42,939 nt of DNA, taken from IMG/VR virus record IMGVR_UViG_2571042732_000002; one strand, written 5' to 3'. The position numbers and the translations under genes were made by a program. The notes beneath the pieces are model-generated. The model was not told where the DNA came from. It ran no database searches and saw only the letters and a list, made by a program, of their open reading frames with translations. The DNA is from a virus. Lineage: Duplodnaviria; Heunggongvirae; Uroviricota; Caudoviricetes. Shown piece after piece: positions 4,953-13,814 of the stretch. Position 1 is the first letter of the stretch. Every line of letters starts with the position of its first letter.

Positions 4953-5159
4953 TTAGTGATTCAGGCCGTTACCGCGTCCGTCGAGAAAAACTTCCACGAG
5001 CAAATCACGGGTATAAGTGCGCTCGATGCCGCGATGCAGATAAAGCCGTCCGCGTAAATTAGCTGATGCAGTCCAGGTGCTATCTTTGTGTTTAACCAGC
5101 ATACCTGGCCGGACGGCACCGCGATTAACGGTCTGCGTTCCGTAATGTTGATGAACCAT
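4953..5159 (-). CDS. Hypothetical early-left protein, 68 aa, in the kil/cIII position
   Basis: ATG at 5159 preceded by AGGAG with 5-nt spacing; lies between gam and pL. Confidence 0.5.
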
Positions 5160-5361
5160 AAAAACTCCTGCCCGTAAGCTGGGCTGCTGAACAAATAAGG
5201 GGGTGCGCAGTATCTGGCGGTGGATGGCCGCCGGTTGTCATAACTAAGTCGCCTCGTTGAAGCAACTGAGGTATGAAGTGTTGAGTTGATTTCAGCTGGT
5301 CACACCGACGTTCACGCGTCCGCTTCACCCCTCGCACTCCCCGGAGCCTGCTGAAATTCAA
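5125..5361 (-). CDS. Candidate N-like antiterminator with Arg-rich motif, 78 aa or shorter
   Basis: First ORF downstream of the proposed pL; N-proximal KRTRERR resembles the arginine-rich motifs of lambda/P22 N. Start is TTG or an internal GTG; overlaps the 68-aa ORF; no convincing boxA/boxB found. Confidence 0.25.
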   Translation of the reverse strand: MNFSRLRGVRGVKRTRERRCDQLKSTQHFIPQLLQRGDLVMTTGGHPPPDTAHPLICSAAQLTGRSFYGSSTLRNADR

Positions 5362-5439
5362 GCTGCGGATCTAAGCGGTCATCGCAACGGTGAATCAGGT
5401 GGTTGCCGTATCGTTGTGTTGTTGCGATATGGTGATAAT

Positions 5440-5505
5440 AGCTATTGCTATTGGTGATATCAATACTTATTGCTATTGTTAGATGTGTTTTGGTATTAAA
5501 TGTTT
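5440..5505 (-). promoter_or_regulatory. oL/pL: leftward early promoter with repressor operators
   Basis: Minus-strand TTGATA (5473-5468), 17-nt spacer, TATTAT (5450-5445); spacer and flanks carry TTGCTATTG/CAATAGCAA repeats shared with oR. Confidence 0.55.
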
Positions 5506-5602
5506 GATAGCAAAAAGAATTAATTTTGTGACTTGCATCGCATAGCGATAACTGAAGCGAGGTCGTGGTGGTTTTTTGAACGGTTTGTGATGAGGGGAGG
5601 GG

Positions 5603-5631
5603 ACAAAAGAAAACCCGGCACGGTGGCCGGG
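5603..5631 (-). terminator. Rho-independent terminator ending the cI-downstream operon
   Basis: Minus-strand CCCGGC...GCCGGG stem followed by TTTTCTTTTGT, directly after the stop of the 170-aa gene and upstream of oL. Confidence 0.5.
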
Positions 5632-5640
5632 TCTGTCATG

Positions 5641-6153
5641 TCAGTGAGCGTGCTTTTCTTTTAATTTTAGTGCAACAATTTTTGTGATCACTCCGGAAAG
5701 CAGCATCGTGTAATTAGGGATTTTTGATGCTTTGTTCAAAACAGAGCCAATAACTAGAAATATAGCTAAAATAAATCCGAATAATGTCATGGATATCATT
5801 GAAATTATAGGGTTTTTTGCCATGTACATTTGCATTAAAACTGCGAAAAAGCGGTCAAATTCCTCAGAGTTCTCCTTGATAATATCCTCGGGTTTATTTT
5901 TGCTGGAGGCTAAATAAAACACGATAATGAATGGAGAAGCTATGAGCATCAATGGCAATGCGAACCACATCCGCATTAGCTTGTAATTTAGGTACATTTT
6001 ATTTTTTTCCTTGTCTGATAAATTTTCATCATTAAGGAATGTACTAAGCATCTCAACCGCTTTTGCTTGGTGTTTTAGGGCGTTTTTTCTACAGAAAATC
6101 CAATAAGAAAGCACGCAAGCACTGGCAACAGCGGCATATATCCACGTCATCAT
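5641..6153 (-). CDS. Polytopic membrane protein, 170 aa, about 3 TM helices, rexB slot
   Basis: ATG at 6153 overlapping the stop of the upstream gene (TAATG) with AGGAGG just upstream; three hydrophobic helices; AT-rich codon usage. Confidence 0.7.
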   Translation of the reverse strand: MMTWIYAAVASACVLSYWIFCRKNALKHQAKAVEMLSTFLNDENLSDKEKNKMYLNYKLMRMWFALPLMLIASPFIIVFYLASSKNKPEDIIKENSEEFDRFFAVLMQMYMAKNPIISMISMTLFGFILAIFLVIGSVLNKASKIPNYTMLLSGVITKIVALKLKEKHAH

Positions 6154-6404
6154 TACTTACCTCCTTTCCGTTTCTTTTGCCTTGCTCTGATATCATTGAC
6201 TCTCTCATCGAGAAGTCGTTCACTTTTTCGTATACTACCCCATGTATAAATTAAGTAAATGATAATGACAGGAAGTGAAAGAACAAGCATTGCACCAAGA
6301 AAAGGTGACTTGGTGTAAATGTCGCTCCAAAACGAATGGGCGGCAATTATAGATTTAGGGACTGTTTCATCACCCATATCTATGTTTATTAAAGAAAAAC
6401 CCAA
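6153..6404 (-). CDS. Small single-pass membrane protein, 83 aa (74 aa from ATG 6377), rexA slot
   Basis: One hydrophobic helix (FLGAMLVLSLPVIIIYLIYTW) and a basic C-terminus; begins 40 nt downstream of the cI stop on the same strand; start is TTG 6404 or ATG 6377. Confidence 0.55.
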   Translation of the reverse strand: MGFSLINIDMGDETVPKSIIAAHSFWSDIYTKSPFLGAMLVLSLPVIIIYLIYTWGSIRKSERLLDERVNDIRARQKKRKGGK

Positions 6405-6443
6405 AACTCACATCCCTTATAAATCTAAAAGATGGTTTAAAAC

Positions 6444-7136
6444 TCAACCATGTTTTCGGTAAGTTTGCGGCATGCTCCCAATAACCTTACCGAAGATGAA
6501 CACCCGGTTCATCTCGTCTTTCTCGATCGGGTCCCACGGTGAGTAGCTCTTGTTATCAGAGATAACCAGCAGCTTATCCTTCATCATTTGCAGGCGCTTT
6601 ACATGGGCTGTGTCGTCGTACAGAAACGCATAGATACCATCACCGTCGAAAGATTTAACAGTGATATCAACGAACAAAAGATCACCTGGTTCGATCGTTC
6701 CTGACATGCTGTCACCGCGTACGTTAATGATGCGGATATTTTCTGCCTTCCTGCCATCGAACATGTGACGAGCATCGTCAAACGAGTACTCAACCGAGCG
6801 TAGAACTTCTACAAACTCACGATTGATGACACCCGGTCCGGCACTGACTTCTATATCAAGAACGTCAATCTTGAAGTATTTGGAATGGTTGACAGCAGGC
6901 TTCCCTGATTGTTGACCGTCATTTCTCATCGGGCCTATGCCTGATGAGAGCCACTCTGTTCGAACACCCAATGCATTAGCTATTTCAACAATTTTTGTTG
7001 AGCCGCGCGCGTTGCCGCTTGTCAGTCTCCAGATTGTGGGTTGAGCTACGCCAGACGCCTTTGCAAGAGCGCCTTGAGACATTCCAGATTGTTCCATCGC
7101 TAGGTTTAAGCGATCAGCAAGAGTTTCTTTTTTCAT
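6444..7136 (-). CDS. cI: CI-type prophage repressor, HTH plus S24 LexA-like peptidase, 230 aa
   Basis: N-terminal HTH (GMSQGALAKASGVAQPTIWRL), C-terminal S24 motifs (GDSM ... AHVKRL). ATG 7136 preferred because the track's TTG at 7172 lies inside the proposed pRM -35. Confidence 0.8.
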   Translation of the reverse strand: MKKETLADRLNLAMEQSGMSQGALAKASGVAQPTIWRLTSGNARGSTKIVEIANALGVRTEWLSSGIGPMRNDGQQSGKPAVNHSKYFKIDVLDIEVSAGPGVINREFVEVLRSVEYSFDDARHMFDGRKAENIRIINVRGDSMSGTIEPGDLLFVDITVKSFDGDGIYAFLYDDTAHVKRLQMMKDKLLVISDNKSYSPWDPIEKDEMNRVFIFGKVIGSMPQTYRKHG

Positions 7137-7246
7137 AAGTTTTAATTTATACGCTTGCGTATTGATGGTCAAAACACGTTTTGCTATTGATTGGATTAAT
7201 ACGCATTGCTATTATCTATTCATTGCAATACCAATAGGAATTGATA
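7137..7246. promoter_or_regulatory. oR with divergent pRM and pR
   Basis: pR on plus strand: TTGATT (7187-7192), 17 nt, TATTAT (7210-7215). pRM on minus strand: TTGACC (7172-7167), 16 nt, ATAAAT (7150-7145), ending about 8 nt from the cI ATG (leaderless-like). TTGCTATTG-type repeats present. Confidence 0.6.
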
Positions 7247-7474
7247 ATGACAAATCAAACCATTCAACTCGCAATCAGTATTACAGGTAGTCAAAAACGA
7301 CTGGCAGATCTATGCGGTGTAGCCCAACCCACTGTTTGGCGTTGGCTACACGGTGGCGGAATTGATGCCCGCTATGTAATGAAAATTGTCTCAGCCACTG
7401 GTGGAAAGATTAAACCAGCAGATATTCGTCCCGACCTCGCACCATTGTTTAACGCGAGTAATTCTGCCGCCTAA
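7247..7474 (+). CDS. cro: Cro-like HTH regulator, YdaS-type, 75 aa
   Basis: First gene downstream of pR, divergent from cI; HTH (QKRLADLCGVAQPTVWRWL) and C-terminal ...ATGGKIKPADIRPDL motif recalled from YdaS-family Cro proteins; ATG 7247 with AGGAA upstream. Confidence 0.7.
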   Translation: MTNQTIQLAISITGSQKRLADLCGVAQPTVWRWLHGGGIDARYVMKIVSATGGKIKPADIRPDLAPLFNASNSAA

Positions 7475-7498
7475 ACTGCGGCGTTAACTGATAAGGCA

Positions 7499-8041
7499 AT
7501 GACTATGCAACCACTTACATACCAACAGACTAGCGGATTTAGCCCGACTGCGGTGATAAATCGTTCTCAAACAAAACAGGTGCCAGGCCACGAAAAAATC
7601 CGTGATGCCGTCCGCGCCTGGTCGGCTGCAGATAATCAGGATGTTGTTGCCGCACTCATTGTGAATGAGTATCGGGAGCTGGGCGGCACCATCGATTTCC
7701 CTGATGATGTCAGCCGTGCACGCCAGAAGTTGTTCCGCTTCCTCGATAACAAATTCGATTCTGAAAAATACCGAAATAACGTGCGTGAACTGACCCCGGC
7801 AATTCTGGCGGTACTACCGCTGGAATATCGCGGCCACCTAGTTGAGCAGGATAGCTTCATGGCTCGGCTGGCTGAAATGGAAAAGGAACTCAGTGAGGCA
7901 AAGCAGGCGGTCATTCTCAACGCACCACGCCACCAGAAACTGAAGGAAATGAGTGAAGGTATTGTGTCGATGTTTCGTGTGGACCCAGATCTGGCTGGTC
8001 CACTGATGGCGATGGTCACCACCATGCTGGGGGCAATATGA
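7499..8041 (+). CDS. CII-position regulatory protein, YdaT-like, 180 aa
   Basis: Located between cro and O; family assignment is by position and recalled resemblance only. Confidence 0.45.
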   Translation: MTMQPLTYQQTSGFSPTAVINRSQTKQVPGHEKIRDAVRAWSAADNQDVVAALIVNEYRELGGTIDFPDDVSRARQKLFRFLDNKFDSEKYRNNVRELTPAILAVLPLEYRGHLVEQDSFMARLAEMEKELSEAKQAVILNAPRHQKLKEMSEGIVSMFRVDPDLAGPLMAMVTTMLGAI

Positions 8042-9057: not shown

Positions 9058-9755
9058 AAAACATCGCCGCACAGATGGTTAACTTTGACCGTGAGCAGAT
9101 GCGCCGGATCGCCAACAACATGCCGGAACAGTACGACGAAAAGCCGCAGGTACAGCAGGTAGCGCAGATCATCAATGGTGTGTTCAGCCAGTTACTGGCA
9201 ACTTTCCCGGCGAGCCTGGCTAATCGTGACCAGAACGAACTGAACGAAATCCGCCGCCAGTGGGTTCTGGCTTTCCGGGAAAACGGGATCACCACAATGG
9301 AACAGGTTAACGCAGGAATGCGCGTAGCCCGTCGGCAGAATCGACCATTCCTGCCATCACCCGGGCAGTTTGTCGCCTGGTGCCGGGAAGAAGCATCCGT
9401 TAACGCCGGGCTGCCAAACGTCAGCGAGCTGGTTGATATGGTCTATGAGTATTGTCGGAAGCGTGGCCTGTATCCAGATGCAGAGTCTTATCCGTGGAAA
9501 TCAAACGCGCACTACTGGCTGGTTACCAACCTGTTCCAGAACATGCGGGCCAATGCGCTTACTGATGCGGAATTACGGCGCAAGGCTGCCGATGAACTGT
9601 CCTGTATGACCGCGCGAATTAACCGTGGTGAGGCGATACCTGAACCAGTAAAACAGCTTCCTGTCATGGGCGGTAGACCTCTAAATCGTGCACAGGCTCT
9701 GGCGAAGATCGCAGAAATCAAAGCTAAGTTTGGGCTGAAAGGAGCAAGTGTATGA
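9054..9755 (+). CDS. P: Replication protein P (DnaB helicase loader), 233 aa
   Basis: Translated ORF recognisably near-identical to lambda P; ATGA overlap with O. Confidence 0.95.
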   Translation: MKNIAAQMVNFDREQMRRIANNMPEQYDEKPQVQQVAQIINGVFSQLLATFPASLANRDQNELNEIRRQWVLAFRENGITTMEQVNAGMRVARRQNRPFLPSPGQFVAWCREEASVNAGLPNVSELVDMVYEYCRKRGLYPDAESYPWKSNAHYWLVTNLFQNMRANALTDAELRRKAADELSCMTARINRGEAIPEPVKQLPVMGGRPLNRAQALAKIAEIKAKFGLKGASV

Positions 9756-10050
9756 CGGGCAAAGAGGCAATTATTTATTACCTGGGGACGCATAAGAGCT
9801 TCTGTGCGCAGGACGTTGCTGCGGCAACAGGTGTGATAGTAACCTGCATAAATCAGGCAGCGGCTAAAATGGCGCGTGCAGGAATCCTGGTCATTGATGG
9901 TAAGGTCTGGCGAACACGGTGTATTACCGGGTTGCTACCAGGGAAGAACGGGAAGGAAAGGTGAGCTCGAATCTGATTTTCAAGGAGTGTCGCCAGAGTG
10001 CCGCGATGAAGCGGGGGCTGGCGGTATATGGGAGATTAGTTATTACTTGA
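9752..10050 (+). pseudogene. ren: ren, disrupted by a frameshift
   Basis: N-terminal 55 aa match lambda Ren in frame 1 (MTGKEAIIYYLGTHKSFCAQDVAA...GKVWRT); the rest of Ren (VYYR.ATREEREGK.S.NL.FKECRQSAAMKR) continues in another frame after about 9917; frame 1 stops at 9964. Confidence 0.6.
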
Positions 10051-10404: not shown

Positions 10405-11952
10405 CTACTTGTTTTTTTTAATATGTTCAATCTCATCATTAAGACTTTTATCTATTTTTTTTATTAACACATTGATTTCTTTGGTGTTTTGGAGTTGAGT
10501 TGTCTTAGAAACAAAAACTCGAATAAAGAATTTAACATAGTGATAGGGTTGAAGCACTTCATTGCACTCACGCAAATCATTTATTTTATATTTGCCGCCT
10601 GTTTCTTTTTTTATTATTTTGGCTTGACTTGTATCGATATCTTTAAAGTTATCTTCAATCTGAAAATCAAGAACCCATTCATTTCCTTTTAAATTATCTT
10701 TAATAATTCCATCGATTTTATCAGATATATCTTGTTTGGCTTCTTTGTATTTTTTGTCGGAAAGTTTAACATTAGAAAAAGTATATTTTTTTTCATATAC
10801 CTTTTTCCAAACATTTCTCTTAATAATATCTTGAATTATAGTTTTGGGACTTTCACCTAATTTATTATAAAGAGTATGCTCTAAAAATTTCTTGTCTGGG
10901 TTTGCAAGATAAAAGTCTTTGATGGACTCGATGAGTGTGTCTTTATCTTCTAAAGAGATAACATCAACAGGGTTTTCTCCAGAGCACGCTTTATTAAGCA
11001 TGGCAGATAACGCACGGTTGGTCTTATGGAAATAAACTTGACTATAAAGCCCACTTCTCGCATTTGCAAACTCTAGTATTGAGTCCATACCACTTTCTTT
11101 ATATGCTAGGTAAACACTATTTCCAACCTTCACAGGGATAAATGACATTAACAATCGCCCATAATCATAAATCCCATATTTAACGCCTGAGAAGTAGCTA
11201 TCTCTAAGTAAGTAATCCATTCTATCTGCATCTATAGGTGAAGATGATATGATTGAACCCAACAAAGGATATAGATTTACTTCATCAATATTATTTTCAT
11301 AATTGTATTTTTTTTCAACAATTTTTATAATGCTTTCTGGGTTAATTTCCTCTATATTTTTTTTATAGGCATCGTCGTTATTTGATTCACTGTTAGCTTC
11401 TTTTTTTAATTCTTCAATTATTTCTTTGATAAAAATACATGACATTTGTTCATGGGTTAATCTATTATTATTATTTAGTGATATGATTTCATCGTATTTT
11501 TTAATCCCATCAGCCTTGCATTTTTCTTTGAAAGCGTTTACGGATATTGAAAAACTATCGAATTGGTGGGCAAGGGGGCCATGCCCAACATCGTGTAACA
11601 ATGCTGCAATACGTAGCTCCTGTATAAGACTTGCTGGCATTTTTTTTATATCTAAATATAAATCAACGCCCATATTTTTTCGGTCATAAATTAATGCATT
11701 CAAATTTATATTTTTCAAAATCTCATACGATAAATGCATTACACCGACAGAGTGTTCAAAGCGAGAGTGCATTGCAGAAGGAAATACTTTATATAGAAAC
11801 GTATTCTGCCTGATATCTCTTAGTCGCTGGAATAAAGGATGGTCAATTATCTTTTTTTCTAGCTTAGTTATTCGAATCACTCCATGTATGGGATCTAAAA
11901 ACTTCCCCAGAAGTAAGTCTTCAAAGTTCTCAAGTTTGTTTTTGTTTGTCAT
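10405..11952 (-). CDS. HD-domain protein, dGTPase/SAMHD1-like dNTP triphosphohydrolase family, 515 aa
   Basis: HD motifs in canonical order: RFEHSVGV, LLHDVGHGPLAH, DADRMDYLLRD; ATG 11952 with AGGAAA upstream; C-terminal third Lys-rich and low complexity. Confidence 0.75.
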   Translation of the reverse strand: MTNKNKLENFEDLLLGKFLDPIHGVIRITKLEKKIIDHPLFQRLRDIRQNTFLYKVFPSAMHSRFEHSVGVMHLSYEILKNINLNALIYDRKNMGVDLYLDIKKMPASLIQELRIAALLHDVGHGPLAHQFDSFSISVNAFKEKCKADGIKKYDEIISLNNNNRLTHEQMSCIFIKEIIEELKKEANSESNNDDAYKKNIEEINPESIIKIVEKKYNYENNIDEVNLYPLLGSIISSSPIDADRMDYLLRDSYFSGVKYGIYDYGRLLMSFIPVKVGNSVYLAYKESGMDSILEFANARSGLYSQVYFHKTNRALSAMLNKACSGENPVDVISLEDKDTLIESIKDFYLANPDKKFLEHTLYNKLGESPKTIIQDIIKRNVWKKVYEKKYTFSNVKLSDKKYKEAKQDISDKIDGIIKDNLKGNEWVLDFQIEDNFKDIDTSQAKIIKKETGGKYKINDLRECNEVLQPYHYVKFFIRVFVSKTTQLQNTKEINVLIKKIDKSLNDEIEHIKKNK

Positions 11953-12311: not shown

Positions 12312-13814
12312 TTAAATTGCATCTGCAAACTCTGGGACTTTTCGCTCAAGTATAATTGATGAGTTGCTGTTGTCGCTTTTTTTATTTTCATGATTACGAA
12401 TGGCCAATGACTCATTAAAGTCTTTTGCGACTGCTGTCTCAATAAATTCAATTTCTGAATCAGAGTGTTTTTTAACAGCTTCTTTGATCTCATCCAGAGT
12501 AACATAGAAAAACTCTTTTCTACGATTTACAAGATTGACTCTCTTTTTATCGAAGACATCATGTAGTTTTTTTTCTAATGATGGAGCGTCCTCCGAATAA
12601 ATCATGGCATGCACATCAAAAATAAAAGGAACAGATGCATCACCAAGCTCATTTACACGGTCTTGTGGATCAAGACGTCGTGTCATGCCTATTTTATAAA
12701 CATTCTCCCCAAAAGAACCTATGTTCGAAATAATATAAACATGACCTTGTTTGGTTTGTTGTGCCATGGATAATGCTCTTTGATGCTTTGATTCAGCCTG
12801 CGACAAACTCTGTTCTAGTTCGGCAATGCGATTTTCGAGGCGCTGCTTCATGTCACCAGTAACTTTTTCCATTTCCTTTCTTGCAGCTTCAATTGCTTTT
12901 TTATAACGGCGCTCTTCTGCCTCTGCGTCTTGCATTGCCTTTTCTATTTCTCGTTGTGCACGCTCCTCCTCTCTCATTTGTGCCCTTATTTCTGCCTGTT
13001 CTTCTTTTTCTTTCTGTTTTTGCTCACGATATTCATGGGTAAGCCACAACTCCTCAAGTTTTTTATTAAGGTATTTAGTATTTATATATATGTGATTTTG
13101 CTCGTTTAGTTTATTTATGGCCTCAAATGCCTTTGTGATGCGTTCTTCCATTTTAGTGATATTTTTCCACGTGCAATTACTAATTGCAGCATCACATTCA
13201 TTATTAAATGCTCTAGTAGTTAGCCTAATATTTCTGTCTGTCATTTTTTTACCCTCTGCTCGAGAGCCTTCAACAGTCCATTGGGTTGTACAATATACTG
13301 CACCAGAGTGGGTTTTATCCCGCAGCATTAATTTCTGTTCATCCCTGATGGATTTTATTTTGTTTTTAAATTGCTCTGAATCTTCAAAATTAAAATGAGG
13401 TTCGTAAAATCCTAGTTCGGTTAGTTCAACATCTTCTGAATAAATAGAAATTTGCTTTACTAGTTTATCATATATTTCTTTCTTCTCTTTATAAGTTCTT
13501 CTTAGTTCTTGGATTTGTTTATTGATACCATCCATTTTTTCAATGGTGTTTGTTAGTTCATTATTGGCATTTTCTTTTACTTTTTGGGACTCTTCTTTTA
13601 TAATGGAGCATTCTTGCTCTGTTTTTTCAATAAGCTTCTTACATTCCTCTTCCACATTAAAATAATCTGCAAAGCGAGATTTGTATTCTTCATTTTTTTG
13701 ATTGCTATCACTTAATTCTAATTGTATTTTTTTGATGCGTTTGATTGCAGCTATATATAGAACAAGAACAACCAATAAAAATATGATTGCAAGTAATAGT
13801 GGAGTTTGAGTCAT
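12312..13814 (-). CDS. Membrane-anchored coiled-coil protein with C-terminal T5orf172 (GIY-YIG-like) domain, DUF4041-like architecture, 500 aa
   Basis: N-terminal TM helix (LLLAIIFLLVVLVLYIAAI); long E/K/R/Q-rich heptad region; C-terminal GHVYIISNIGSFGENVYKIGMTRRLDPQDRVNELGD...RVNLVNRRKEFFYV matches the recalled T5orf172 consensus; ATG 13814 with AAGGAA upstream. Confidence 0.75.
   Translation of the reverse strand: MTQTPLLLAIIFLLVVLVLYIAAIKRIKKIQLELSDSNQKNEEYKSRFADYFNVEEECKKLIEKTEQECSIIKEESQKVKENANNELTNTIEKMDGINKQIQELRRTYKEKKEIYDKLVKQISIYSEDVELTELGFYEPHFNFEDSEQFKNKIKSIRDEQKLMLRDKTHSGAVYCTTQWTVEGSRAEGKKMTDRNIRLTTRAFNNECDAAISNCTWKNITKMEERITKAFEAINKLNEQNHIYINTKYLNKKLEELWLTHEYREQKQKEKEEQAEIRAQMREEERAQREIEKAMQDAEAEERRYKKAIEAARKEMEKVTGDMKQRLENRIAELEQSLSQAESKHQRALSMAQQTKQGHVYIISNIGSFGENVYKIGMTRRLDPQDRVNELGDASVPFIFDVHAMIYSEDAPSLEKKLHDVFDKKRVNLVNRRKEFFYVTLDEIKEAVKKHSDSEIEFIETAVAKDFNESLAIRNHENKKSDNSNSSIILERKVPEFADAI

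What the first reader, a model, noticed from the sequence alone, without database searches (positions are those of the whole stretch)
5641..6404. Two small membrane proteins co-oriented directly downstream of cI, in the slot lambda uses for rexA-rexB
After the cI stop there is a 40-bp gap, then an 83-aa single-TM protein whose stop overlaps (TAATG) the ATG of a 170-aa ~3-TM protein, with AGGAGG between them. A minus-strand terminator follows (5603-5631), then oL/pL. This reproduces the lambda cI-rexA-rexB-tImm-oL layout with unrelated AT-rich membrane-protein genes, which implies expression from pRM in the lysogen and an exclusion or abortive-infection role.
Basis: partly seen in the sequence, partly recalled or inferred. 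Interest (0 to 1): 0.7.

Follow-up and report, generated by a model that had tools for sequence, protein, structure and literature searches.

The report
Orphan membrane-protein pair in lambda's rex slot
A lambda-like E. coli prophage carries, exactly where phage lambda keeps its rexA-rexB exclusion genes, a conserved and uncharacterised pair of small inner-membrane proteins that is a good but untested candidate for a new way for a resident virus to keep rival viruses out.

Summary
Downstream of cI on the minus strand lie an 83-aa one-TM ORF (6153-6404, TTG start) and a 170-aa three-TM ORF (5641-6153). They overlap as TAATG, with AGGAGG in front of the second gene. A strong terminator follows, then oL/pL. 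That terminator is the sequence homologue of lambda tImm, so the slot is truly the rexAB slot.

The 810-bp cargo (5636-6445, GC 0.35-0.39) is an exchangeable cassette. Prophages with the same cI/cro carry at least six other cargos between the cI stop codon and this hairpin, two of them PADLOC defence candidates. Only 5 of 5426 complete E. coli genomes carry this pair.

The pair is a real, conserved two-gene unit. It occurs in Yersinia, Cronobacter, Enterobacter, Morganella, Providencia and metagenomic phages, always small-then-large with overlapping or abutting stop and start. dN/dS is about 0.09-0.10. It usually sits downstream of a cI-type repressor and is sometimes duplicated.

The family is an orphan, with no Pfam, PADLOC, NCBIfam or PDB match. 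A confident AlphaFold model (pLDDT 93) has no structural neighbour. It is not related to RexA/B or P22 SieA/B.

Function is inferred only. I favour a lysogen-expressed inner-membrane anti-phage module, with block of genome entry more likely than membrane-damaging abortive infection.

The parts
7144..7172 (-). pRM-like promoter (TTGACC-17-TAAATT). Its -10 hexamer ends 7 nt before the cI ATG at 7136, which would give a leaderless cI message as in lambda.
   Evidence: 9/12 consensus match; the position relative to the ATG was read. Function is inferred.
7180..7241 (.). oR: four CAATAGCAAT-type operator half-sites, overlapping the pR-like promoter 7187-7215 (+).
6444..7136 (-). cI repressor (230 aa from the annotated ATG; HTH_3 + Peptidase_S24).
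5636..6445 (-). Exchangeable cargo cassette: the stretch with no homology to sister prophages that share the same cI/cro. GC 0.35-0.39.
   Evidence: (homology ends at 5632-5635 and resumes at 6446-6448 in four of the five sister loci, at 6415 in L003)
6405..6443 (-). 39-nt spacer between the cI stop and the small gene. It has a weak SD (AAGGGA), no terminator and no consensus promoter.
6153..6404 (-). Small subunit gene: 83 aa, TTG start, single TM (residues 35-53). The predicted periplasmic N-terminus carries a conserved FW.D.Y..SP motif. The cytoplasmic tail is basic. Not annotated in RefSeq.
6160..6165 (-). AGGAGG Shine-Dalgarno of the large gene, embedded in the last codons (GGK) of the small gene. 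It is conserved in all 8 homologous loci examined.
5641..6153 (-). Large subunit gene: 170 aa (WP_032286713.1), three TM helices, predicted N-out/C-in. It has a cytoplasmic helical hairpin, the conserved motifs YW..CR, R.WF.LP and MY..RNP, and a C-terminal HAH.
5601..5634 (-). Intrinsic terminator, homologue of lambda tImm. It is shared by all the alternative cargos.
5435..5478 (-). oL operators (three half-sites at 5438-5478) overlapping the pL-like promoter (TTGATA-17-TATTAT, 5435-5463).

Best explanation
The two ORFs form one translationally coupled operon unit. It encodes a two-subunit inner-membrane module: a single-pass small subunit and a three-pass large subunit. The module is carried as an exchangeable cargo cassette in the cI-tImm slot of a lambda-like, icd-integrated prophage.

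Because it lies between the cI stop codon and the tImm terminator, it should be transcribed with cI from pRM in the lysogen (inferred). It has no enzymatic or nucleotide-binding domain, so it must act through contacts within or at the inner membrane.

The most likely role is protecting the lysogen against superinfecting phages. The favoured mechanism is interference with the phage genome-delivery conduit, or with an inner-membrane entry factor (superinfection exclusion at the DNA-entry step).

What is shown: the anatomy, the cassette boundaries, tImm homology, conservation of the pair, purifying selection, the predicted membrane topology, and the lack of relatives.

What is inferred: lysogenic co-transcription, physical interaction of the two proteins, anti-phage function, and the DNA-entry step as target.

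Sub-confidences:
- real coupled membrane module in an exchangeable rex-slot cassette: about 0.9
- anti-phage role of any kind: about 0.55
- DNA-entry block specifically: about 0.3-0.35
For: Anatomy and signals.

Slot homology with lambda: the tImm hairpin is conserved between the window, lambda and Cronobacter prophages.

Cassette behaviour:
- Homology with five sister prophages stops at the cI stop codon and at the hairpin.
- The alternative cargos are all co-oriented with cI.
- They include the PADLOC candidates PDC-M63A/B (E 7e-43 and 4e-42) and PDC-S42 (E 3e-86).
- Further cargos appear in the evenly spaced sample of matches.

The pair is one unit:
- In every locus examined, the small ORF lies directly upstream of the large one. 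These are E. coli, Yersinia, Cronobacter, Enterobacter, Morganella, Providencia phage PSTNGR2lys, three IMG/VR contigs and metagenome contigs at 22% identity.
- Stop and start overlap or abut, and a GGAGG-type SD lies inside the small gene.

Selection: dN/dS is 0.10 for the small gene and 0.086 for the large gene in the one unsaturated comparison.

Context: 7 of 9 distinct contexts place the pair downstream of, and co-oriented with, an HTH+S24 repressor of differing immunity type. In Morganella the small gene starts 4 nt after the cI stop.

Tandem paralogous pairs occur in L027/L028, which fits diversification of specificity.

Family properties: it is small and uniform, with 48 clusters at 50% identity among 1.84 billion proteins, all but two short fragments 157-192 aa, and no fusions.

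Precedents:
- P22 SieA is a 162/164-aa, three-TM inner-membrane protein that alone blocks DNA injection (PMC10461980).
- rexAB and bstA occupy the same slot (PMC8585504).
- The same prophage also carries PD-Lambda-1, so it is a defence-gene carrier.
Against: There is no experimental or expression data of any kind.

No sequence or structural similarity was found to any known exclusion or defence protein:
- PADLOC, Pfam and NCBIfam gave nothing.
- hhalign probability was 1.1% or less against RexA, RexB, SieA and SieB.

Guilt by position is weak evidence. The slot also holds cargos of unknown function, and prophage cargo genes include non-defence conversion genes. Lom and Iss/Bor in this same prophage are examples.

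Known membrane Sie proteins such as SieA act alone, whereas here two subunits are obligatorily linked.

In Enterobacter and L024 the pair sits beside tail-fibre genes, not cI. The cI linkage is therefore frequent but not essential.
Confidence: 0.45

Rival explanations
1. Membrane-acting abortive infection, working like Rex but built differently. One subunit senses infection at or in the membrane. The other, probably the three-TM subunit as an oligomer, then permeabilises or depolarises the inner membrane and stops both cell and phage.
For: - It occupies the same slot, and has the same two-gene arrangement, as rexAB.
- RexB-type effectors are small polytopic membrane proteins (PMC12894663).
- The unequal translation signals suggest a controlled stoichiometry, which matters for Rex (PMC12894663). 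The small gene has a TTG/GTG start with a weak SD in 5 of 8 loci. The large gene has ATG with AGGAGG in all 8.
- N-out/C-in three-TM topology with a charged C-tail resembles class I holins (own knowledge).
Against: - There is no cytoplasmic sensor domain equivalent to the DNA-binding RexA. Both products are membrane proteins.
- hhalign finds no relation to RexA or RexB.
- There are no Pfam holin hits.
- A constitutively expressed pore-former would be expected to show signs of toxicity control that cannot be seen here.
Confidence: 0.2
2. A lysogenic-conversion function unrelated to phage. Examples are immunity to a pore-forming bacteriocin, modulation of a host inner-membrane transporter or sensor, or envelope-stress or gut-colonisation fitness.
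For: - The prophage carries other conversion genes (Lom, Iss/Bor, a TonB-family protein).
- Small polytopic inner-membrane proteins of 110-180 aa are typical of immunity proteins for pore-forming colicins (own knowledge).
- Three of the five carrier genomes come from rodent-gut isolates, assuming MP1 is counted as a mouse isolate (MP1's mouse origin is own knowledge).
- In Enterobacter the pair sits at the tail-fibre end of the prophage, a classic site for conversion cargo.
Against: - No toxin or bacteriocin gene is linked in any locus.
- There are no plasmid-borne copies in PLSDB.
- The pair is found only in phage or prophage contexts, mostly tied to the repressor, and sometimes duplicated in tandem. 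Tandem duplication is more typical of arms-race functions.
Confidence: 0.2
3. An accessory of the lysis-lysogeny switch or of prophage induction. For example, it might modulate the membrane protease FtsH/HflKC or RecA-dependent cleavage, as proposed for phage 434 Hex and for secondary roles of RexAB.
For: - Tight physical linkage to cI in most contexts.
Against: - The pair travels between unrelated immunity types.
- It also occurs far from any repressor.
- It is dispensable for hundreds of prophages with the same cI/cro.
Confidence: 0.07
4. Chance ORFs or decaying remnants with no function.
For: - The small ORF is unannotated and uses TTG.
- Disrupted copies exist: a frameshifted copy in L027 and the deletion fusion P0011.
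Against: - Both frames are conserved across genera down to about 20-30% identity, with the same architecture.
- dN/dS is about 0.1.
- The AlphaFold model built from a 50-sequence alignment reaches pLDDT 92.9, which indicates coevolving contacts.
Confidence: 0.03

Closest known systems
Phage lambda rexA-rexB (RexAB-type abortive infection)
   Same: The genomic slot is identical and bounded by homologous sequence: cI stop on one side, the tImm hairpin and then oL/pL on the other. Both are two co-oriented genes, with a small polytopic membrane protein as the distal gene. Both are presumed to be expressed from pRM in the lysogen.
   Different: There is no homology (hhalign probability 0.1-0.2%). 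The proximal gene here is an 83-aa single-pass membrane protein, not a 279-aa cytoplasmic DNA-binding sensor. The distal protein has 3 rather than 4 predicted TM helices. The genes are translationally coupled through a TAATG overlap. No phenotype is known.
Phage P22 SieA (inner-membrane superinfection exclusion protein that blocks DNA injection)
   Same: Size and predicted architecture are similar to the large subunit: 162/164 aa against 170 aa, three TM segments, and a K-rich loop after TM1 (PMC10461980). Both are prophage-expressed cargo.
   Different: There is no detectable homology. SieA acts alone and sits near the immI/tail genes under its own promoter. The present protein always has a coupled small partner and usually sits behind cI.
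BstA (prophage abortive-infection protein encoded downstream of cI in Salmonella phage BTP1 and relatives)
   Same: It shares the conserved position downstream of the prophage repressor and, presumably, the repressor's promoter. It ends with its own Rho-independent terminator (PMC8585504).
   Different: [quoted passage not shown] It is not a pair of membrane proteins. There is no sequence relation: PADLOC gave no hit.
HK97 gp15 and T4 Imm/Sp type small membrane exclusion proteins
   Same: These are small phage-encoded inner-membrane proteins with no enzymatic domain that stop genome entry (HK97 gp15 is cited in PMC10461980; T4 Imm/Sp from own knowledge).
   Different: They belong to different families, sit at different loci and are single genes. 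No PHROG exclusion family was hit. The present proteins fall into the unknown-function families phrog_19124 and phrog_21491.

Membership tests
Lambda RexAB-type abortive infection system | Located directly downstream of the prophage repressor in the same transcription unit, ended by tImm | tested here: met
   cI stop at 6444, cargo, then a hairpin homologous to lambda tImm. Co-transcription itself is inferred.
Lambda RexAB-type abortive infection system | RexA-like soluble, DNA-binding sensor component | tested here: not met
   The proximal product is an 83-aa single-pass membrane protein. hhalign of the large-subunit family profile against lambda RexA gives 0.2% probability. No Pfam or PADLOC hit.
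Lambda RexAB-type abortive infection system | RexB-like polytopic membrane effector (homology or fold) | tested here: not met
   hhalign against lambda RexB gives 0.1% probability. Three rather than four TM segments. Functional analogy is not excluded.
Lambda RexAB-type abortive infection system | Infection-triggered loss of membrane integrity or growth arrest | not testable with these tools
   Needs infection assays with membrane-potential or viability read-outs.
SieA-type inner-membrane superinfection exclusion | Small integral inner-membrane protein with about three TM helices | tested here: met
   Hydropathy and the positive-inside rule. Confident all-helical AlphaFold model. This is prediction only; localisation has not been shown.
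SieA-type inner-membrane superinfection exclusion | Sequence membership in one of the SieA types | tested here: not met
   hhalign against P22 SieA gives 0.2% probability. No PHROG exclusion family was hit at E up to 1.
SieA-type inner-membrane superinfection exclusion | A single protein is sufficient | tested here: inconclusive
   The large gene is always accompanied by the coupled small gene, which suggests both are needed. Sufficiency is an experimental question.
SieA-type inner-membrane superinfection exclusion | Blocks DNA injection of specific phages without killing the cell | not testable with these tools
   Needs efficiency-of-plating, K+ efflux or DNA-entry, and survival assays.
Catalogued anti-phage defence systems (PADLOC-DB v2.0.0) | Match to a system HMM | tested here: not met
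   No hit for either protein at E up to 10. As positive controls, the neighbouring cargos PDC-M63, PDC-S42 and PD-Lambda-1 are detected.
Mosaic cargo (moron) of the lambdoid cI-N hotspot | Variable content between conserved flanks, a compositional break, and transcription-unit signals | tested here: met
   Sharp homology breakpoints. At least six alternative cargos. GC 0.35-0.39 against about 0.52. Shared tImm terminator. The hotspot is described in the literature (PMC8585504).
Holin/antiholin pair | Member of a holin family and located in the lysis cassette next to the endolysin | tested here: not met
   No Pfam holin hit. The prophage's holin, endolysin and Rz cassette lies elsewhere.

The most novel reading that the evidence does not exclude
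The pair is a new, minimal, all-membrane sensor-effector immune system. The single-pass subunit, with its conserved periplasmic FW.D.Y..SP motif and basic cytoplasmic tail, would detect the phage genome-delivery apparatus or incoming DNA at the membrane. It would then gate the structurally novel three-TM subunit. This would be a Rex-like abortive or exclusion switch with no cytoplasmic sensor and a fold not seen in the PDB or in viral structure predictions.
Probability: 0.15. Interest if true: 0.8.

Novelty: new member of a known kind. Interest (0 to 1): 0.55.

Why it matters
The cI-tImm interval is probably the best-expressed cargo site of a lambdoid prophage, and it is where Rex was found more than 60 years ago. 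Here the slot behaves as a plug-in cassette site with many alternative cargos, most of them uncharacterised. It is flanked by two conserved sequences, the cI C-terminal domain and the tImm hairpin, that could serve as recombination handles.

The pair in this window has several features that make it a good experimental target:
- It is a compact orphan family of 253 aa in total.
- Its two-gene architecture is strictly conserved.
- The large subunit has a confident predicted fold with no known relative.
- It is small enough for direct genetics.

If it excludes phages, it would add a new protein family, and possibly a new two-subunit membrane mechanism, to the short list of exclusion systems acting at the inner membrane. 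It would also give a handle on how phage genomes cross that membrane. If it does not, it is one more conversion cargo of unknown function.

Tried and rejected
- **Family libraries.** Pfam, NCBIfam and PADLOC scans of both proteins, and Pfam scans of all 50 family members, gave only TM-bias noise.
- **PHROGs.** Only two unknown-function families were hit.
- **PDB sequence search.** Profiles of both families gave noise.
- **Reference comparisons.** Profile comparison with lambda RexA/RexB and P22 SieA/SieB showed no relation.
- **First AlphaFold run.** Five sequences gave pLDDT 55, which is unusable. It was superseded by the 50-sequence run at pLDDT 92.9.
- **Word-indexed protein search.** It returned only 4-9 relatives. 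The exhaustive HMMER search was needed to see the family.
- **The search for related loci.** The 5-sequence alignment gave 4 loci.
- **Phage collection.** Near-identity DNA search found only the conserved left flank, not the pair. tblastn found only Providencia phage PSTNGR2lys.
- **Plasmids.** No match.
- **Literature.** No paper mentions WP_032286713. Several phrase searches returned nothing. Brenes & Laub 2025 on E. coli prophage defence is not in the library, so I cannot exclude that the pair was tested there.
- **Internal start codon.** I considered the ATG at 6377 as the start of the small gene and rejected it. That Met is Ile in Cronobacter and Yersinia, and the upstream residues are conserved.
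- **Independent promoter.** I looked for one in the 39-nt gap and found none by consensus scan.

Full report
**Source of the window.** The window is a complete lambda-like prophage integrated next to icd. The 2-kb stretch around the finding (5500-7500) is 100% identical to E. coli MP1 (NZ_CP139039.1) and to four other complete genomes: SCU-111, R12, LI60C3 and FDAARGOS_1373. The early-left genes (exo, bet, gam, a kil-like gene), the immunity region, the O/P-type replication genes and lambda-type head and tail genes are all present.

**The observation.**
- cI is 6444..7136 from its annotated ATG and has HTH_3 plus Peptidase_S24 domains.
- A 39-nt spacer follows.
- The 83-aa ORF is 6153..6404 and starts with TTG.
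- Its TAA shares base 6153 with the ATG of the 170-aa ORF (5641..6153). AGGAGG lies at 6160-6165.
- Six bases after the stop begins a 9-bp, GC-rich hairpin with a T-run (5601-5634). Its dG is -19.2 kcal/mol and z is -2.2.
- A pL-like promoter (5435-5463, 10/12) and three CAATAGCAAT-type operator half-sites (5438-5478) follow. Four more half-sites lie at oR (7180-7241). This is 10 matches against 3.6 expected, and no shuffle reaches that number.
- A pRM-like promoter (7144-7172) ends 7 nt before the cI ATG, so cI would be leaderless as in lambda.
- GC falls to 0.35-0.39 over the pair, against 0.50-0.55 around it.
- By hydropathy, the small protein has one TM segment (35-53), an acidic N-terminus and a tail with 11 K/R. 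The large protein has two strong TM segments and one weaker N-terminal one, with K/R-rich loops that fit an N-out/C-in topology. Of 50 relatives, 37 score three segments.
- RefSeq annotates only the 170-aa gene, WP_032286713.1.

**The slot is lambda's rex slot by homology.** This is more than an analogy.
- Lambda's sequence directly after rexB reads ACCCGGCCTCAGCGCCGGGTTTTCTTTG. The window reads ACCCGGCCACCGTGCCGGGTTTTCTTTT after the 170-aa gene.
- The same hairpin follows the homologous pair in Cronobacter prophages. It also follows every alternative cargo examined in E. coli.

**The pair is an exchangeable cassette.**
- BLAST against five E. coli prophages with the same cro (an identical protein) and about 97% identical cI shows where homology ends. 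It stops at window 5632-5635, which is the top of the hairpin. It resumes at 6446-6448, the cI stop codon, in four loci and at 6415 in the fifth.
- Between these points, those prophages carry the following cargos, all co-oriented with cI:
  - a DUF6414 protein plus a 59-aa ORF
  - three hypothetical genes
  - two hypothetical genes
  - a DUF6932 protein plus a 310-aa protein
  - a single 313-aa protein
- Two of these match PADLOC defence candidates: PDC-M63A/B (E 7e-43 and 4e-42) and PDC-S42 (E 3e-86).
- An evenly spaced sample of the 2214 matching genomes shows still more cargos: LAPAL-motif, DUF7946, DUF3800 and BamE-like proteins.
- That sample also shows that the cI C-terminal domain is shared at 95-97% identity with other immunity types. 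The cargo is therefore flanked by two conserved sequences.
- Only 5 of 5426 complete E. coli genomes hold this particular pair.
- The literature already calls the cI-N interval a mosaic hotspot holding rexAB and bstA (Owen et al. 2021, PMC8585504, citing Degnan 2007).

**The pair is a real, conserved two-gene unit.**
- An exhaustive HMMER search of 1.84 billion representative proteins found 48 clusters. All but two short fragments are 157-192 aa, and none is fused to another domain.
- Genomic contexts were recovered for Yersinia mollaretii, Cronobacter sakazakii, Enterobacter roggenkampii, Morganella morganii, Providencia phage PSTNGR2lys, IMG/VR contigs, and metagenome contigs at 22% identity.
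- In every one, an 82-87-aa ORF of the same architecture sits directly upstream of the large gene. That architecture is an N-terminal W-D/K-SP motif, one TM segment and a basic tail ending in GGK. Stop and start overlap or abut.
- The GG of the tail is encoded by the large gene's GGAGG-type SD. The SD is conserved in all 8 loci compared.
- The small gene starts with TTG or GTG in 5 of 8 loci. The internal Met of the E. coli small ORF is Ile in Cronobacter and Yersinia, so the upstream TTG start is the real one.
- In the only comparison with unsaturated dS (L009 against L024), dN/dS is 0.10 for the small gene and 0.086 for the large gene.
- In 7 of 9 distinct contexts the pair lies downstream of, and co-oriented with, an HTH+S24 repressor of differing immunity type. 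In Morganella the small gene begins 4 nt after the cI stop.
- In Enterobacter and L024 the pair instead sits beside tail-fibre genes at the prophage end.
- Two IMG/VR contigs carry two paralogous pairs in tandem, within an array of small membrane-protein genes behind cI. One contig shows disrupted copies.

**What the proteins are.**
- No library recognises them. Pfam, NCBIfam and PADLOC gave nothing. PHROGs places them in two unknown-function families. PDB sequence profiles gave noise.
- With 50 sequences, AlphaFold gives a confident all-helical model of the large subunit (pLDDT 92.9, pTM 0.74). Helices span 2-40, 47-61, 65-82, 88-94, 97-113, 115-144 and 148-169.
- Conserved positions are Y17, C21, Y57, W63, P67 and an invariant P115 in an RNP motif. 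Many members also have a C-terminal H-x-H; 14 of 50 end in HAH.
- Profile comparison with lambda RexA and RexB and with P22 SieA and SieB shows no relation.

**How it most likely works.**
- Shown: a translationally coupled pair of predicted inner-membrane proteins sits in the repressor's transcription unit. The unit ends at tImm. No terminator or consensus promoter lies between cI and the pair.
- Inferred: both proteins are made in the lysogen and act together in the membrane.
- With no catalytic or nucleotide-binding domain, they must work through membrane protein contacts or pore formation.
- The slot's known occupants (rexAB, bstA) and its candidate occupants (PDC-M63, PDC-S42) point to an anti-phage role. 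So do the prophage's other defence gene (PD-Lambda-1), the restriction of the family to phage contexts, and the tandem paralogues.
- Within that role I favour a block of genome entry. P22 SieA is the precedent: a 162/164-aa, three-TM inner-membrane protein that alone blocks DNA injection (PMC10461980).
- A Rex-like membrane-damaging abortive infection is second. In its favour are the two-gene design and the unequal translation signals. Against it is the lack of any RexA-type cytoplasmic sensor (PMC12894663).
- A conversion function unrelated to phage cannot be excluded. An accessory role in the genetic switch is less likely, because the pair moves between immunity types and also occurs away from cI.

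**Verdict.**
- The layout interpretation is strongly supported. The functional interpretation is plausible but untested.
- The hotspot is known. The module itself is an uncharacterised orphan family and a compact, attractive experimental target.
- I rate it as a new member of a known kind: prophage cargo of the cI-tImm slot and a probable membrane-level exclusion or defence module.
- Interest is moderate at 0.55.

Noticed in passing
window 12312..13814 (-) and 10405..11952 (-): The 500-aa ORF (DUF4041 protein in RefSeq) matches the PADLOC PD-Lambda-1 model at E 1e-198. Next to it is a 515-aa HD-domain protein with no PADLOC hit. Both lie antisense to the early-right operon, between ren and the nin genes. 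This is a second cargo slot of the same prophage.
   Followed up: partly
window 6153..6404 (-) and 5125..5361 (-): RefSeq/PGAP annotates neither the 83-aa small gene nor any N antiterminator. A 78-aa ORF downstream of pL carries an Arg-rich KRTRERR motif reminiscent of N proteins but has no Pfam hit. nutL was not located.
   Followed up: partly
window ~6444..6895 (cI C-terminal domain) and 5601..5634 (tImm): The S24 half of cI is shared at 95-97% identity with E. coli prophages of other immunity types. The tImm hairpin is shared with lambda and with Cronobacter prophages. Together they flank the cargo with conserved sequence that could act as recombination handles for cassette exchange.
   Followed up: partly
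L028 1471..4004 and L027 1707..4018 (IMG/VR contigs): Two paralogous small+large pairs lie in tandem inside a roughly 3.7-kb array of small membrane-protein genes (58-69 aa) downstream of a cI-type gene. In L027 one small partner is missing and one large copy is truncated to 115 aa.
   Followed up: partly
protein P0011 (78 aa, a Logan assembly contig): A natural in-frame deletion fuses residues 1-37 of the small protein to the last ~40 residues of the large protein. It is a deletion derivative of the module.
   Followed up: no
window 5641..6404 compared with L008, L009 and L012: The two genes give discordant similarities. The E. coli small protein is 71% identical to Enterobacter's and 45-48% to Cronobacter's and Yersinia's. 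The E. coli large protein is 48% identical to Enterobacter's and 54-56% to the other two. This suggests recombination inside the module or very unequal rates.
   Followed up: no
L005 1708..2427 and L004 1642..2844 (sister E. coli prophages): The two-gene (87 + 147 aa) and three-gene (107 + 150 + 140 aa) cargos in the same slot have no Pfam or convincing PADLOC match. They are further uncharacterised cassettes in the rex slot.
   Followed up: partly
window ~9752..10050 (ren, from L001 10253..10551): ren is annotated as frameshifted in the MP1 record. Otherwise the prophage looks intact.
   Followed up: no
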